Shown here: positions 1-30,000 of the stretch, piece by piece | How positions within the stretch are numbered: position 1 is the first letter of the stretch | Layout of the letters: every line of letters starts with the position of its first letter | Assembly (NCBI RefSeq): GCF_006345805.1 | Contig: NC_042999.1 | Coordinates: forward strand, 24,118,001 to 24,182,000 | Direction: 5' to 3' | Length of the DNA: 64,000 nt | Origin: Octopus sinensis | Taxonomy: Eukaryota | Made by a program: the position numbers

Positions 1-3000
1 ATAGACAGATAATGTTATACGTAAATTCTGTTGTGTCTGGGGAGAGTCATTTTCTTTTTGTGCCTTATAACATAACGCACTCACCGGTAAAATTTCCACT
101 TTTTTCTTACTTTTATTTTCCTAAAATTTTCGTTGCGTCTTGCAACCTTTTCAATAAGAAAATGACTCTCCCCAGACACAACAGAATATGCTTCAACACA
201 CGAAATCATATAAAGAAACTTGCAAACCAAATCCAAAAACGTTATACGTAAAGACATAATAAAACCAAATAACAAATGTGTGTATGTGCGTGCATGCGTA
301 GGCGTGATTGATAGTTAGGATGTAGTGCTCATGATCGTAAGATTGAGGTTTCGATTCCTGGACCAGGCGATGCATTATGTTCTTGAGCAAATCCCTTCAT
401 TTCACATATTTTCAGTCTATTCAGCTGACAAAAATAAGTAATTCCGTAGTACGGAACCGTCCCTCGTCTAGCGAGGAACTAAAATTGCCAGAAAATCCGG
501 GAAACCAGCCATATGAGCCTATAGCTGGTGAAGGACCTTCATCCATTTTGATAGACAGGCAGAGAGCTAGATTACATAGAGAGATTGATGCATCACTTTT
601 GAAAAAGCAAATTTTAGTAACTGTAAATATATAAATACCTATCGAACAATCATTTCCTCTGTACCCTGGTTGACACTGACAGGAAAAACTTGTATTTACG
701 TTAGAACAAAGACCTCCATTTTGACAAGGGTTGCTGCTGCATGGATCAACTGAAAAAAATTATCATGAAATTCTTATGTACCCAAATATTAATAAACGAC
801 CAAAACGCCCCCCGTCCAATAGACGGTGCTGAGTTGTCAAACATTTAAACCAAATTTTCTCAAAACAACTTGTCCGACCGTCCCATTTTGTGGTATTATT
901 TCAAGCCAGCCGGCTTTCTTTGTTCAAACTGCACGTGCATTTTTCTCGCGTATGCGTAGTATCGATCACAATAGCTGATGTACTTGCGCGTACAAATGCA
1001 CGTTCCCACGACTTTATCGATCGCATTATCACCTGGAATCGATGTTTGTAATATTTTCAAGACTTATACACGCCCTGATACAGTCGGTATCTACATATCA
1101 AATTTGAGCGTATTCGGATGGAGGATGCCCGAGATCCTACAAGACGCACACATAGACAGACAGAACGATTTTATATAATAGATATGTCAGATATCATTTA
1201 TTTATGCATTTATTGATTGATTGATTTTGCTACACTCTTGTGGTGTTAGGAAAAGTGATATAACGATTATATTCCGAGCAAGAAAAAAAGTGGAAATGAT
1301 GTTATCGAATCAGAAACTAACATTTCTACTGACATGCAAGACTGAAGAAAAATATATATATACAATGCAAAATTGATGCAGCACAATATGATGCACAGCA
1401 TCCCACCCATAAAGGACAGTTGCAGGATGGGTCGAAACAATTGTCGTACAAAATGAAGATTAATACTAAATCCATCTTTGTTTACTCAATCGATTATTAG
1501 ATACCCATTCATCCATCTGCGTAGAATAGTAAATGTGTACAAACTGTTGGTAGGCTAGTTATTAATTTTGAATAAATACCTGTAGAACAATCGTTTCCCG
1601 TGTATCCCAGCTGACACTGACATATATAATCCGTTCCTTGGTTAGAACATATGCCTCCATAAAGACATGGTGAGCTACTGCATGGATCAACTGAAAGTAT
1701 ATCATAAGATTTACGATTGGCGTCTTTAATAAAGACTAATCTTTTGAAGATAGGGTTTTGATAAAGACTAATTATATAATTTATGATTGAGATCCTTAAT
1801 GAACATTCATCATATCATTTACAATTGACGTCGTTAATAAAGATTGATCGTATCATTTACGATTGAGCTCCTTAATGAACATTCATCATATCATTTACAT
1901 TTGACGTCGTTAATAAAGACTGATCGTATCATTTACGATTGAGATCCTTAATGAACATTCATCATATCATTTACAATTGACGTCGTTAATAAAGACTGGT
2001 CGTAACATTTACGATTGTTGTCTTTAATAATGAGTGGTGTTTACGATTGGCGTCTTAAATAAAGACCCATCATATCATTTAGGATTATAGTCCCTAATAA
2101 AGGTTTATATCATTTATGATTGATGTCTTTAATAATGACGGGTATTTACGATTGGCGTCTTAAATAAAGACCCATCATATCATTTAGGATTATAGTCCCT
2201 GATAAAGACTTATATCATCTACGATTGACGTCTTTAATAATGACTGGTATTTACGATTAGCGTCTTAAATAAAGACCCATCATATCATTTAGGATTATAG
2301 TCCCTAATAAAGACTTATCTTATCATTTACGATTGATGTCTTTAATAATGACGGGTATTTACGATTGGCGTCTTAAATAAAGAAGCATCATATCATTTAG
2401 GATTATAGTCCCTAATAAAGACTTATCTTATCATTTACGATTGATGTCTTTAATAATGACGGGTATTTACGATTGGCGTCTTAAATAAAGACCCATCATA
2501 TCATTTAGGATTATAGTCCCTAATAAAGACTTATCATATCATTTACGATTGACGTCTTTAATAAAGTCTGAACATATTTACGATTTGTGTCTTTAAATAA
2601 GATTGATCACATAATTTACATGTGACATCGTGAATAAAGATGATCATATCGTTTACGATAAAAATGAGAATTTGTGTTTAGAATATCATACAAATATCAA
2701 TTAACTTGACAGTATAAAATTTAGTAATAATTAACATGGATGAATTAGGAACCTACCCACAGAACAGACATATCCACTGTAAGCTGTCTTACATATACAT
2801 TTGAAAGAAGTTCCTTGATTTATGCACACCCCATCATTTAAACATGGTTTACTGCTACAAGGATCAACTGAAATATACAAAGTTTCGTAAATAAGATTTC
2901 GTCGGTTTCGACGATGAGCATTTTGTTTTCGACCAGCTCATTGAATCATCATGTAAATAGTTGAATATTCCATGGATATATGTAGTCTTAATGTAATTCT

Positions 3001-27000: not shown

Positions 27001-30000
27001 TATTAAGTTTTGCATCAATATGGCTGAAGATAAAAGTTAAGACTGGCAAGAACGTAGTATTAGCACCGCAATTACACATTACCTATCTTAATATTTTGAT
27101 TTGATGGTGAAATATTTTACCTACCGTCTATTTTAATGTAAAAGTATAACCACGCAGTCTCTCTTTTAAAGTTTGTTTTTTTCTGAATTATTGAGCCAAA
27201 TAAAACAAACCGACGTACACTCACACACACACACACACCACACACACACACACACACATCAGAAAAGAATGTCACTTAATGGCAGTGTGTGTCATAATTA
27301 ATTTCCTGTTACGGCTGTATACTGCCTGTGAATTCTAAAAGATGGAATAAAATTGGTTTTATCTGAATCCACCTTCTGACAATTCAAAGCCGTTTTGTTG
27401 CCGCCTCATTATACGAACGAACAATTATATTACACTCTGGGCAACTCCTAGACATGTAAAGTATAGAATACTTAAAAATCTAAGTAAAACGACAGTTAAT
27501 TTTTCAATGTCACGAAGAATGTAAGGGATACTGAGATTTCATTTGCTTTTATATAAGTTCATTGTTTTATATAATATAAGTCTGAAGTGATTATGTCGTC
27601 AGATTTAGGGACATATAATAAAGGAACATCATTCATAATACACACTAAATCGCTGAAAAATATTAAGTGTAGTTCAGTATCGTTGGATATGTTGTTTTAT
27701 AGATGGCTTGTAATGCACTGAGATTAGATATACAATTGAAAAATTATTAGATTTTAGTTGATCGGTGAAATATTAAACAGAAAAGCTGATTAGGAACCAT
27801 TTCCAAAAAGAGAAAAATAGCCTAACGATGAAAACGGAAAGAAAATTCATTAGTTGAAACATATGAAAGCCAGACATATTAACAATCATATTCTGTTCTT
27901 CAAATCAACAACAGCTACAACAATAATAAGATCTAAACCAAAAGCAAATGCAGTGTTAGTCAAGATATTGAAAGTTAAATGTGGGGAAATTCTAAATGCA
28001 AAATGATGGCAAGTTTACTGTGTGTTGTTAGAAACTCACCAATGAGACCAAACAAGTGAAATGTCTTCATAGTTCGGCTTTGTTGGAGGTCCGGTTGATG
28101 GGTGCCGTCCGCTGCCTGGACCGAATGTCTTCTAACTACTTATATATACCTATGGACATATATACATGAATGCAGGTGTGGGAGAGAGAGAGAGGAGGGA
28201 AGGAAGAGAGATAGACAGAGCGTTGGTGAAACATAATTGGCTAATTTTGTGGGGTGGAGAAGTGAATGTGAGGCGAGTTAAAAACAAATGTATAATGTAC
28301 TTACGTAGGTGCATAGACTTGCGGACAGGCAGGTCGGTTGGTCGGTAGGTAGGTTGGTAGGTAGGTAGGCATAGGTTGGTAAGATGGAAGGAAGGAGAAA
28401 AGGAAGTAAGTAAGGAAGGAAGATGGGTAGGTAAGGTGGGTAGGTATAGTGGAGTTGAGATTTTAGTGTTGTGGGCGGTTGAAGAATATTTATCCTTGGA
28501 CAAAGGACAAAGGTGGAAGACAGAGGCTGAAAAAGGCACTGAAATTGTATGGAAGATGATTTTGGTGGGTGATGGTAAGAGTAAGGAGATGAAATACATG
28601 TATTTGTGTGTGAGGGTGTTCGAAGTTCTCTGTGTTCGTGCGAGTCTTTGCATCTGTATGTAGGAAGATTTACATAGTGATGAGTAGAAAAGTATACATA
28701 CGGCGAGCTGGTAGAAACGTTAGCACGCGGGGCGAAATGCTTAGAGCATTCCGTCTGCCGTTACGTTCTGAGTTCAAATTCCGCTAAGGTCGACTTTGCC
28801 TTTCATCCTTTCGGAATCGATAAAATCGACTGGGGTCGATGTAATCAACTTAATCCCTTTGTCTGTCCTTGTTTGTCCCCTCTATTGTGGGCAATAAAGA
28901 AATAAGAAAGGTATACATTTGTAAAATAAAATGTCTTAGTGGGGTAAGAAGCTTGTTTCTAAACCACATGATTTCGGGTTCAATCCCATTGCCTGGCACA
29001 GTGGGTGTCTTCCACTATAGTCTCGGGCCGACCAAAGCCTTGTGAATGAATTTTGTAGAAGGAAACTGAAAGAAGCCCGTCGTATGTATATATATATATA
29101 TATATATATATATATACGTGGAGGTGCAATGGCCCAGTGGTTAGGGCAGCGAACTCGCGGTCGTAGGATTTGCGGTTTCGATTCCCAGACCGGGCGTTGT
29201 GAGTGTACTCTTTCGCCACAACTTTCTCTCACTCTTTCTTCTGTTGGCCTGCTCGCTTAGCCAGCGGGGTGGCGTCATTTGAAGGCTAAAACAATGCGAA
29301 GCGCATTGTGACCAGCGTTGTGTAACAACACCTGATAGCCTGGTCGGTCACGGTGATCACGGTGATATATATATATATATATATATATATATATACATAC
29401 ACATGTGTGTGTGTCTTTGTACCAGTGTTTGACTCGCTTCACTGCATGACAACCGGTCTTGGCTTGTTTACGTCGCCGTTACTAAAATTCTTCAAGGCAG
29501 TGCCCCAGTATGGCAACAGTCTTATAGCAGAAACAAGTACATGACAAAGTACACAGGTAAAAGAATGTGTGTGAGTTTGGATGTATGTACATATGTAAAT
29601 ACATGTATCACAGATTCCTTCATCTGAAATTGTACGAATGGACGACAGGCAGAACAGACATACGTGGACGGGTAGAATGATTGTATGTTGGACCCCCGTT
29701 TTGCCTGTTTTTTTTTTCCTACAAAAATAAGTTTAAAAAATAAGTTAACCCCAAAATTGATCGTAGTATTATCGAAAAAAAAACAAATTTCAAAAATCAA
29801 TATATCGATATACATTAAATACCGTATTTACTTTTGACTCCCAGCAGATGACGAAACTGGGGTTACATCAGTGTGTACGTAGTTCAAATTACATAAGCGT
29901 AACTCTGTTCATACACATATGAGCACGCACGCACATACACATACTAACATGTAAGCATGTATACACACGCGCGCACAGATACGCACAAACACATGCATAC

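What the first reader, a model, noticed from the sequence alone, without database searches (positions are those of the whole stretch)
639..28070. Hidden gene with unusual architecture: signal peptide - WSC - VWA(MIDAS) - EGF x10 or more
Seen: 15 exons, mostly invisible in the ORF track, splice into one open frame of about 681 codons with all 8 WSC Cys, a full MIDAS (DESGS...T...D) and 60 of 60 EGF Cys intact, which suggests purifying selection. Known: WSC is a putative carbohydrate-binding module (yeast Wsc1, Kremen, polycystin-1), VWA is a metal-dependent adhesion module, and matrilins pair VWA with EGF. Inference: a glycan-sensing plus metal-adhesion head on a long EGF stalk, possibly a lineage-specific matrix, adhesive, mucus or immune-recognition protein. 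I do not recognise this domain order as a named family.
Basis: partly seen in the sequence, partly recalled or inferred. Interest (0 to 1): 0.8.

Follow-up and report, generated by a model that had tools for sequence, protein, structure and literature searches.

The report
Mosaic WSC–VWA–EGF matrix protein gene
The window holds most of a real, intron-rich animal gene for an extracellular protein built from one WSC module, one metal-binding VWA module and at least ten Notch-type EGF modules; the domain order has no name that I could find, but it is an ordinary product of exon shuffling.

Summary
The core observation holds. On the minus strand, 14 GT-AG exons (28070 down to 639) read in one frame with no stop: 1969 nt, 656.3 codons. 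Searched exon by exon, they give one WSC domain split over two exons, one VWA domain (160.7 bits) with a complete MIDAS motif, and 10 of 10 EGF exons above Pfam's cut-off, with 60 of 60 Cys. I could not reproduce the 15th exon or the 681 codons. The signal peptide is weak. The model ends in phase 1, so the gene runs off the left edge and its C-terminus is unknown.

Every module boundary is phase 1, the mark of exon shuffling. The VWA is closest to mussel byssal PTMP1 and collagen VI. The EGFs are closest to Notch and Delta. I read it as a secreted or surface-bound matrix or adhesion bridging protein.

No paper I found puts WSC and VWA in one protein. The nearest described protein is clam byssal bcbp-1, with two WSC and 16 EGF domains.

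Conservation, expression and the 23017-to-17259 junction therefore stay untested. Interest is modest.

The parts
28040..28070 (-). Putative first coding exon: ATG at 28070-28068, 31 nt, phase-1 donor at 28040. An alternative weaker donor lies at 28019. The leader is short and weakly hydrophobic.
   Evidence: No better start exon was found up to 40000 (every candidate listed there (the 30 best of 81) is a microsatellite translation).
25289..25422 (-). WSC domain, first half (phase 1 in, phase 0 out), 3 Cys.
   Evidence: Pfam WSC 24.6 bits, profile positions 1-45 of 82. The only PDB hits are the Kremen-1 WSC domain: 4 of 4, best E 0.063. The top 3 atlas clusters are WSC.
23017..23140 (-). WSC domain, second half (phase 0 in, phase 1 out), 5 Cys including the CGG motif.
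   Evidence: Pfam WSC 13.4 bits, profile positions 46-82 of 82. Cys positions, peptide. No PDB sequence hit.
16693..17259 (-). VWA domain in a single 567-nt phase 1-1 exon. MIDAS is complete: DESGS at 17221-17207, GATYT at 17014-17000, Asp at 16909-16907. One Cys sits at each end.
   Evidence: Pfam VWA 160.7 bits, profile positions 1-173 of 174. PDB: PTMP1 domains 73.0 and 75.8 bits, collagen VI alpha-3 N-domains up to 66.2 bits. Coordinates.
14306..14419 (-). EGF1 (114 nt, phase 1-1).
   Evidence: Pfam EGF 25.6 bits against a cut-off of 21.5; 6 Cys.
12985..13095 (-). EGF2 (111 nt, phase 1-1).
   Evidence: Pfam EGF 36.6 bits; 6 Cys.
11233..11343 (-). EGF3 (111 nt, phase 1-1).
   Evidence: Pfam EGF 36.9 bits; 6 Cys.
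9694..9804 (-). EGF4 (111 nt, phase 1-1).
   Evidence: Pfam EGF 34.4 bits; 6 Cys.
8046..8156 (-). EGF5 (111 nt, phase 1-1).
   Evidence: Pfam EGF 27.1 bits; 6 Cys.
7097..7207 (-). EGF6 (111 nt, phase 1-1).
   Evidence: Pfam EGF 29.4 bits; 6 Cys.
4667..4777 (-). EGF7 (111 nt, phase 1-1).
   Evidence: Pfam EGF 31.3 bits; 6 Cys.
2757..2867 (-). EGF8 (111 nt, phase 1-1).
   Evidence: Pfam EGF 32.3 bits; 6 Cys.
1580..1690 (-). EGF9 (111 nt, phase 1-1).
   Evidence: Pfam EGF 35.0 bits; 6 Cys.
639..749 (-). EGF10 (111 nt, phase 1-1). It is the last exon inside the window. Its donor is in phase 1, so the gene continues past the left edge.
   Evidence: Pfam EGF 38.6 bits. AlphaFold2 model with the 10-repeat alignment has pLDDT 92.7. 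Foldseek TM-score 0.93 to EGF substrates of POFUT1/POGLUT1 and 0.92-0.94 to Notch-1 EGFs.

Best explanation
This is the 5' part, possibly most, of a genuine protein-coding gene of an AT-rich, repeat-rich animal genome, probably a mollusc. It encodes a mosaic extracellular protein: a short leader, one WSC domain, one VWA domain with an intact metal-ion-dependent adhesion site, and a rod of at least ten Notch-type, non-calcium-type EGF repeats.

The gene was assembled by exon shuffling of phase 1-1 modules, followed by old tandem duplication of the EGF exon.

Proposed mechanism (inferred, not shown): the protein is a bridging or adhesion component of an extracellular matrix or secretion.
- The VWA MIDAS would coordinate a divalent cation and clamp an acidic side chain of a protein ligand. 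A collagen-like partner is the leading guess, because the nearest characterised VWAs, mussel PTMP1 and collagen VI, act in collagenous matrices.
- The WSC head, and possibly the multivalent EGF array, would hold a glycan or a second protein.
- The short-linker EGF array would act as a semi-rigid spacer that may carry O-glucose or O-fucose.

Whether the protein is released or membrane-anchored cannot be said, because the 3' end lies outside the window.
For: Shown:
- 14 collinear GT-AG exons in one open frame.
- Domain identity exon by exon. The two WSC halves cover profile positions 1-45 and 46-82 with no gap or overlap.
- 8 WSC Cys and a complete MIDAS.
- 10 of 10 EGF exons above Pfam's cut-off, and a confident EGF fold.
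- All module boundaries are phase 1.
- The EGF copies are old and constrained: mean amino-acid identity 0.53, pS 0.75, pN 0.31, with pN < pS in 45 of 45 pairs. Intron flanks are about 30% identical, which is close to what chance gives in DNA this AT-rich.
- Exons have no DNA-level copy elsewhere in the window, while the window holds 33 repeated segments, none of them in an exon.
- There are no further WSC, VWA or EGF copies in the window.
- The VWA is closest to PTMP1 (73.0 and 75.8 bits per domain) and to collagen VI alpha-3 N-domains (up to 66.2 bits).
- The nearest atlas clusters are mollusc-dominated VWA clusters.

From papers:
- PTMP1 binds mussel and mammalian collagens (PMC4754843, abstract passage).
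- Tandem EGF arrays of byssal proteins bind GlcNAc-based polymer, and bcbp-1 combines 2 WSC with 16 EGF (PMC11697411, abstract passage and section 7).

Composition: Cys 10.9% and Gly 9.9% over 644 complete codons, against the 11.84 and 12.31 mol% reported for bcbp-1 (PMC11697411, section 7).
Against: - There is no expression evidence of any kind. The 23017-to-17259 and 28040-to-25422 junctions are inferred from phase and order only.
- The leader is too short and too weakly hydrophobic for a confident signal peptide, so secretion rests mainly on the domain types.
- The C-terminus is unknown.
- The ligand assignments are by analogy. WSC can bind protein rather than glycan (PMC9024836, passages). 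MIDAS-type VWA domains bind many ligands.
- The EGF profile resembles Notch and Delta repeats more than the one adhesive EGF protein in the PDB list (PVFP-5, E 1.3e-11).
- No orthologue could be looked for, so conservation across species is unknown.
- Each WSC half is below Pfam's cut-off on its own (24.6 and 13.4 bits against 27.8).
Confidence: 0.6

Rival explanations
1. Same gene and architecture, but the product is a type I membrane protein: a cell-surface adhesion or sensing receptor. The transmembrane helix and tail would be encoded left of the window, rather than the protein being a released matrix component.
For: The model ends in phase 1 at 639 with no stop, so more exons must follow. 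The clam protein bcbp-2, an EGF array of 19 repeats, carries a transmembrane region (PMC11697411, section 7). WSC domains sit on membrane receptors such as Kremen and yeast Wsc1 (PMC9024836, passages). The EGF repeats are most like Notch and Delta, which are membrane proteins.
Against: Nothing in the window encodes a transmembrane segment after the EGFs. The VWA is closest to secreted matrix proteins: PTMP1 and collagen VI score above the integrin I domains per domain.
Confidence: 0.25
2. There are two genes: a small WSC-only gene (28070-23017) and a separate VWA-EGF gene whose own first exon lies unrecognised in 23016-17260.
For: No transcript evidence joins 23017 to 17259. This 5.7-kb intron is the longest in the model and is full of repeats and a transposase-like ORF. 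A scan of that interval lists 11 ATG-plus-phase-1-donor candidates. One (21482-21434) has a hydrophobic run.
Against: The WSCb donor is a near-consensus phase-1 site, CTG|GTAAGT. It needs a phase-1 acceptor, and the VWA exon offers the next one on the same strand. The VWA exon has no start codon followed by a signal-like peptide of its own. No candidate in the intron matches more than 4 of 6 donor consensus positions, and 5 of the 11 are microsatellite translations. No stop-terminated last exon for a WSC-only protein was seen.
Confidence: 0.1
3. These are a decaying or never-expressed set of exons, a pseudogene, that merely look intact.
For: There are no expression data. The leader exon is unconvincing. 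The locus sits in very repeat-rich DNA.
Against: There are 0 stops in 644 complete codons across 14 exons. All 27 splice dinucleotides are canonical. All 70 structural Cys (8 + 2 + 60) and the MIDAS residues are kept. All 45 EGF pairs have pN < pS while synonymous sites are saturated.
Confidence: 0.05

Closest known systems
bcbp-1, byssal chitin-binding protein 1 of the ark clam Barbatia virescens (PMC11697411; section 7 read)
   Same: A mollusc extracellular protein that combines WSC with a long tandem array of six-Cys EGF repeats. It is Cys- and Gly-rich: 11.84 and 12.31 mol% there, 10.9% and 9.9% here. The paper reports that its EGF arrays bind GlcNAc-based polymer at the byssus-tissue interface.
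   Different: bcbp-1 is described with two WSC domains and 16 EGFs and no VWA. The main text has 0 occurrences of 'VWA' or 'von Willebrand'. Here there is one WSC, one VWA and at least 10 EGFs. Its sequence is in a supplement I could not open, so sequence relatedness is untested.
PTMP1, proximal thread matrix protein 1 of Mytilus galloprovincialis (PDB 4cn8)
   Same: It has the best per-domain VWA sequence match in the PDB, 73.0 and 75.8 bits, with matching DxSxS, Thr and TDG positions in the alignment and a Cys near the C-terminal end. It binds collagens (PMC4754843, abstract passage).
   Different: PTMP1 is two VWA domains and nothing else. Here a single VWA is flanked by WSC and EGFs (one search finds no second VWA in the window).
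Matrilins, AMACO, SVEP1 and collagen VI (vertebrate VWA-containing matrix proteins; architectures recalled, not tested here)
   Same: A matrix-type VWA sits next to EGF repeats. Collagen VI alpha-3 N-domains score 61-66 bits against this VWA.
   Different: None of these is known to me to carry a WSC domain. The matrilin C-terminal coiled coil cannot be tested because the 3' end is outside the window.
Kremen-1 (PDB 5fww, 5fws)
   Same: It is the only solved protein family hit by the first WSC exon: 4 of 4 hits, best E 0.063, so weak. The 8-Cys WSC pattern and the CGG motif are shared (PMC9024836, passages).
   Different: Kremen is Kringle-WSC-CUB-TM. No Kringle or CUB matched any of the 13 exons scanned against Pfam.
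Notch and Delta-like EGF repeats
   Same: These are the best profile and fold matches for the EGF exons. By consensus patterns that I recalled, 6 of 10 repeats fit C1-x-S-x-[PA]-C2 (O-glucose), 3 of 10 fit C2-x4-[ST]-C3 (O-fucose), and 6 of 10 fit C-x-[DN]-x4-[FY]-x-C-x-C (Asp/Asn hydroxylation).
   Different: No DSL, LNR or ankyrin parts are present. 0 of 10 repeats reach Pfam's calcium-binding EGF cut-off: the best is 22.9 bits against 27.

Membership tests
WSC domain (Pfam PF01822) | Profile match over the whole domain above the gathering score (27.8 bits) | tested here: inconclusive
   The exon halves score 24.6 bits (profile 1-45) and 13.4 bits (profile 46-82). They are contiguous and complementary, but each is below the cut-off alone.
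WSC domain (Pfam PF01822) | Eight conserved Cys and the CGG motif (PMC9024836, passages) | tested here: met
   3 + 5 Cys. CGG is seen in the second-half exon peptide.
VWA domain (Pfam PF00092) with MIDAS | Profile match above 23.8 bits, plus DxSxS, a Thr and an Asp | tested here: met
   160.7 bits over profile positions 1-173 of 174. DESGS, GATYT and TDG are located and align to the same PTMP1 positions.
EGF domain (Pfam PF00008) | Six Cys in EGF spacing, score above 21.5 bits, EGF fold | tested here: met
   10 of 10 exons score 25.6-38.6 bits. 60 of 60 Cys are present. The model has pLDDT 92.7 and TM-score 0.93 to solved EGFs.
Calcium-binding EGF (Pfam PF07645) | Score above 27 bits; D-x-D/N-E before the first Cys (motif recalled) | tested here: not met
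   0 of 10 exons reach 27 bits; the best is 22.9. The residues before C1 are DP in 8, NP in 1 and IEP in 1.
Secreted protein (signal peptide) | An N-terminal leader of about 16-30 residues with a hydrophobic core and a cleavage site | tested here: inconclusive
   The leader is 10 residues with the strong donor and 17 with the weak one. Best 8-residue hydropathy is about 1.7. No predictor was available, and the spliced N-terminus was not assembled.
Matrilins | VWA followed by EGF repeat(s) | tested here: met
   The VWA exon is followed by 10 EGF exons.
Matrilins | C-terminal coiled-coil oligomerisation domain (recalled) | not testable with these tools
   The gene runs off the left edge of the window in phase 1.
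bcbp-1-like byssal WSC-EGF proteins | WSC plus a long tandem EGF array in one mollusc extracellular protein | tested here: met
   description in PMC11697411, section 7.
bcbp-1-like byssal WSC-EGF proteins | Sequence homology to bcbp-1 and binding to a GlcNAc polymer | not testable with these tools
   The bcbp-1 sequence is only in a supplement, and supplements are closed. Binding is a bench test.
PTMP1 | Two tandem VWA domains as the whole protein | tested here: not met
   There is one VWA exon only. A tblastn of it against the window gives no second copy: the best other hit has E 0.14.
Kremen | Kringle and CUB domains flanking the WSC | tested here: not met
   No Kringle or CUB match at E <= 1 in any of the 13 exons scanned.

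The most novel reading that the evidence does not exclude
This is a lineage-specific mollusc 'single-chain coupler'. It would unite in one polypeptide the modules that bivalves deploy in separate byssal proteins: WSC plus an EGF array for holding GlcNAc-type glycan or chitin (bcbp-1), and a MIDAS VWA for holding collagen (PTMP1). It would link chitinous or mucous material to a collagenous matrix in an adhesive, egg-case, cuticle or sucker-type secretion.
Probability: 0.15. Interest if true: 0.5.

Novelty: new variant of a known kind. Interest (0 to 1): 0.3.

Why it matters
If the model is right, it adds a clean worked example of phase-1 exon shuffling. WSC, VWA and EGF are each bounded by phase-1 introns.

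It also gives one candidate for a matrix or adhesive protein that could bind both a glycan polymer and a protein fibre. That would interest people working on invertebrate extracellular matrices and bio-inspired wet adhesives.

It does not open a long-standing question. Domain mosaics of this kind are abundant in invertebrate genomes, and this gene may already be predicted in the public annotation of its genome, which I could not check.

Tried and rejected
- **15th exon.** I scanned 28039-25423 for open phase-1/phase-1 exons of 36-180 nt with a pyrimidine-rich acceptor. This gave 8 candidates, none Cys-rich or signal-like. The minus-strand ORF 24457-24612, inside the WSC intron, has no Pfam match.
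- **Better first exon.** ATG-plus-phase-1-donor scans of 40000-25423 gave 81 candidates; the 30 best were listed, and all of those are microsatellite translations. The same scan of 23016-17260 gave 11 candidates, none matching more than 4 of 6 donor consensus positions.
- **VWA fold.** AlphaFold2 on the VWA exon alone, without an alignment, gave mean pLDDT 51.5. That is too poor to use, so I did not fold-search it.
- **Atlas searches.** The VWA exon and the first WSC exon confirmed the domain types. The hits were single-domain clusters only, so they say nothing about the architecture.
- **WSC second half against the PDB:** no hit.
- **Rfam scan of the whole window:** 0 matches at gathering thresholds.
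- **Pfam on 10 ORFs from repeats or elsewhere in the window.** Only 1 of 10 gave anything, a weak RVT_1 match at E 5.6e-4, below the cut-off. My impression from memory that 38683-38982 and 56029-56328 are mariner-type transposase tails got no Pfam support.
- **Not done because closed or irrelevant:**
  - The homologue searches in the large protein sets were closed, as were the metagenome and viral contig collections and the paper supplements.
  - The prokaryote-only genome collection and the phage, plasmid and E. coli collections cannot hold this gene, so I did not use them.
- **Left out as instructed:** joining the exons and running any search, fold or predictor on the spliced model.

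
Full report
**What is there.** The window is AT-rich, with GC between 0.32 and 0.42 per 2 kb. It is crowded with microsatellites and interspersed repeats. Stop-to-stop ORFs on the minus strand between 28139 and 421 contain short Cys-rich peptides in a fixed order.

Placing splice sites gives 14 exons, written high-to-low coordinate on the minus strand:
- leader: 28070-28040
- WSC, two exons: 25422-25289 and 23140-23017
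- VWA: 17259-16693
- EGF1: 14419-14306
- EGF2 to EGF10, nine 111-nt exons: 13095-12985, 11343-11233, 9804-9694, 8156-8046, 7207-7097, 4777-4667, 2867-2757, 1690-1580 and 749-639

All 13 acceptors are AG and all 14 donors are GT. No exon has an in-frame stop. The phases chain without a break: 0>1, 1>0, 0>1, then eleven 1>1 exons. The total is 1969 nt, or 656.3 codons. Only one exon ends in T (EGF3), and the next begins with TG, so no split codon is a stop (read). Every search and fold below was done exon by exon. Steps that need the spliced protein (InterProScan, SignalP, TMHMM, a whole-protein fold) were left out.

**Domain identity.**
- WSC: the two exons match Pfam WSC at profile positions 1-45 (24.6 bits) and 46-82 (13.4 bits). 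The match is exactly complementary, but each half is below the 27.8-bit cut-off on its own. Together they carry 8 Cys and the CGG motif, the features stressed for WSC domains in PMC9024836 (passages read). The first half finds only the WSC domain of Kremen-1 in the PDB: 4 of 4 hits, best E 0.063, so weak. The second half finds nothing. In the atlas, the first half's three best named clusters are WSC clusters, scoring 0.90, 0.85 and 0.85.
- VWA: the exon scores 160.7 bits over nearly the whole profile. It has DESGS, GATYT and TDG in the MIDAS positions and one Cys at each end.
- EGF: all ten exons exceed Pfam's EGF cut-off at 25.6-38.6 bits against 21.5. None reaches the calcium-binding EGF cut-off; the best is 22.9 bits against 27.
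- EGF fold: an AlphaFold2 model of EGF10, using the ten repeats as its alignment, is confident (pLDDT 92.7). It superposes on solved EGFs at TM-score 0.92-0.94. The best matches are the EGF substrates in POFUT1 and POGLUT1 complexes and Notch-1 repeats.
- EGF profile: a profile of the ten repeats is closest to Notch-1 and Delta-like-1 in the PDB. It also hits the mussel foot protein PVFP-5 at E 1.3e-11.

**More than chance, and under constraint.**
- A six-Cys EGF pattern finds the ten exons plus two unrelated places (30434-30532 in microsatellite-like sequence, and 37693-37785). It finds none in 20 of 20 base shuffles of the window.
- The ten EGF exons are old copies. Mean nucleotide identity is 0.61 and mean amino-acid identity 0.53. 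Synonymous differences are saturated (pS 0.75) and non-synonymous ones are much lower (pN 0.31), with pN < pS in 45 of 45 pairs.
- Intron flanks are only about 30% identical outside the splice signals.
- No exon has a DNA-level copy elsewhere in the window, while the window as a whole holds 33 multi-copy repeat segments, none of them in an exon.
- A tblastn of the exon translations against the window finds no further WSC, VWA or EGF copy.

**What I could not reproduce.**
I find 14 and 656. My search for an extra phase-1/phase-1 exon between the leader and the WSC gave 8 weak candidates.
- The 'signal peptide' is the weakest element. The ATG at 28070 is followed by only 10 residues before the strong donor at 28040 (5 of 6 consensus positions). 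If the weak donor at 28019 (2 of 6) is used, there are 17. Hydrophobicity is modest in both cases.
- Scans for a better start exon upstream and inside the WSC-VWA intron produced microsatellite artefacts or candidates with imperfect donors (at most 4 of 6 consensus positions).
- The model ends in phase 1 at 639. Nothing EGF-like lies in 1-638. The other EGF introns measure 0.8-2.3 kb, so the next exon is expected beyond the edge. The C-terminus (secreted, GPI, transmembrane or coiled coil) is unknown.

**How it most likely works.**

Shown: the modules, their order, their intact structural and metal-binding residues, and phase-1 boundaries around every module. By established knowledge, which I recall rather than tested, such boundaries are the hallmark of exon shuffling among extracellular proteins.

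Inferred:
- The protein is extracellular and acts as a bridge.
- Its VWA is most like mussel PTMP1 (73.0 and 75.8 bits per domain) and collagen VI alpha-3 N-domains (up to 66.2 bits). It is somewhat less like integrin I domains, which score 45-71 bits.
- PTMP1 binds collagens (PMC4754843, abstract passage). A cation-dependent grip on a collagen-like or other acidic ligand is therefore the leading guess.
- WSC domains have a PAN/Apple-like fold. They bind either glycans (fungal beta-glucan lectin) or proteins (Kremen-Dickkopf) (PMC9024836, passages).
- Tandem EGF arrays of clam byssal proteins were reported to bind GlcNAc-based polymer multivalently (PMC11697411, abstract passage, section 7, and a passage of section 8).
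- By consensus patterns that I recalled rather than looked up, 6 of 10 repeats fit the O-glucose site, 3 of 10 the O-fucose site, 3 of 10 the O-GlcNAc site, and 6 of 10 the Asp/Asn-hydroxylation pattern. This agrees with the fold matches to POGLUT1 and POFUT1 substrates. It is a lead only.

**Comparison with what is known.**
- Two full-text searches looked for this combination: WSC + VWA + EGF gave 17 papers, and 'WSC domain' + 'VWA domain' gave 2. I read passages from six of the papers they list. In none of those passages are WSC and VWA assigned to one protein. The other hits are unrelated by title.
- The nearest described protein is bcbp-1 of Barbatia virescens, with two WSC domains and 16 EGF repeats at the byssus-tissue interface (PMC11697411, section 7). 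No VWA is mentioned in that main text. Its sequence and the domain maps of 49 further species are in supplements I could not open.
- Matrilins, AMACO, SVEP1 and collagen VI share the VWA-EGF theme but, as far as I recall, not the WSC.
- The gene is thus a new arrangement within a very familiar kind of protein.

**Limits.**
I therefore could not test whether this architecture is conserved, whether paralogues exist outside the window, or whether the gene is already annotated.
- The source organism is not identified. 'Mollusc' rests only on the atlas's nearest VWA clusters and the PTMP1 match.

**Verdict.** This is a real-looking, well-preserved mosaic gene. The domain call is correct, the exon count and signal peptide are not, and the function is inferred by analogy. 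Interest is modest, at 0.3.

Noticed in passing
window 1761-2659 (intron between EGF8 and EGF9): A satellite-like tandem array: a 108-bp unit in 6.9 copies at 86% matches (1817-2564), nested in 38- and 76-bp periodicities. It also shows up as three near-identical 35-aa ORFs on the plus strand at 2273-2596.
   Followed up: partly
window 3260-63306, 33 segments (list): Interspersed repeat families with up to 20 other copies inside the 64-kb window. They fill most introns and the 28-64 kb region. No exon of the gene overlaps any of them.
   Followed up: partly
window 38683-38982 (-) and 56029-56328 (-): Two closely similar 99-aa ORFs that look to me, from memory, like the C-terminal end of a mariner/Tc1-type transposase. 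Pfam gave no match at E <= 0.01, so this stays unsupported.
   Followed up: partly
window 18607-19646 (+), inside the WSC-VWA intron: Plus-strand ORFs of 87 and 99 aa that resemble, from memory, a DDE transposase fragment. There was no Pfam match.
   Followed up: partly
window 49117-51202 (-): A run of long minus-strand ORFs (156, 153, 99 and 174 aa). One gives a weak reverse-transcriptase match: RVT_1, E 5.6e-4, 20.1 bits, below the 29.6-bit cut-off. This is probably a decayed retroelement next to the N run.
   Followed up: partly
window 51636-51735: A run of 100 N: an assembly gap or mask. It was left untouched.
   Followed up: no
window 28001-30000: The 2 kb just upstream of the putative start codon is the most GC-rich (0.42) and most G-skewed (+0.21) block of the window. 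This could be a promoter or 5'-UTR region, or simply repeats. It was not examined further.
   Followed up: no
window 23321-23685 and 17659-17904 (introns): Two-copy tandem duplications with units of 182 bp (94% matches) and 127 bp (88% matches).
   Followed up: no
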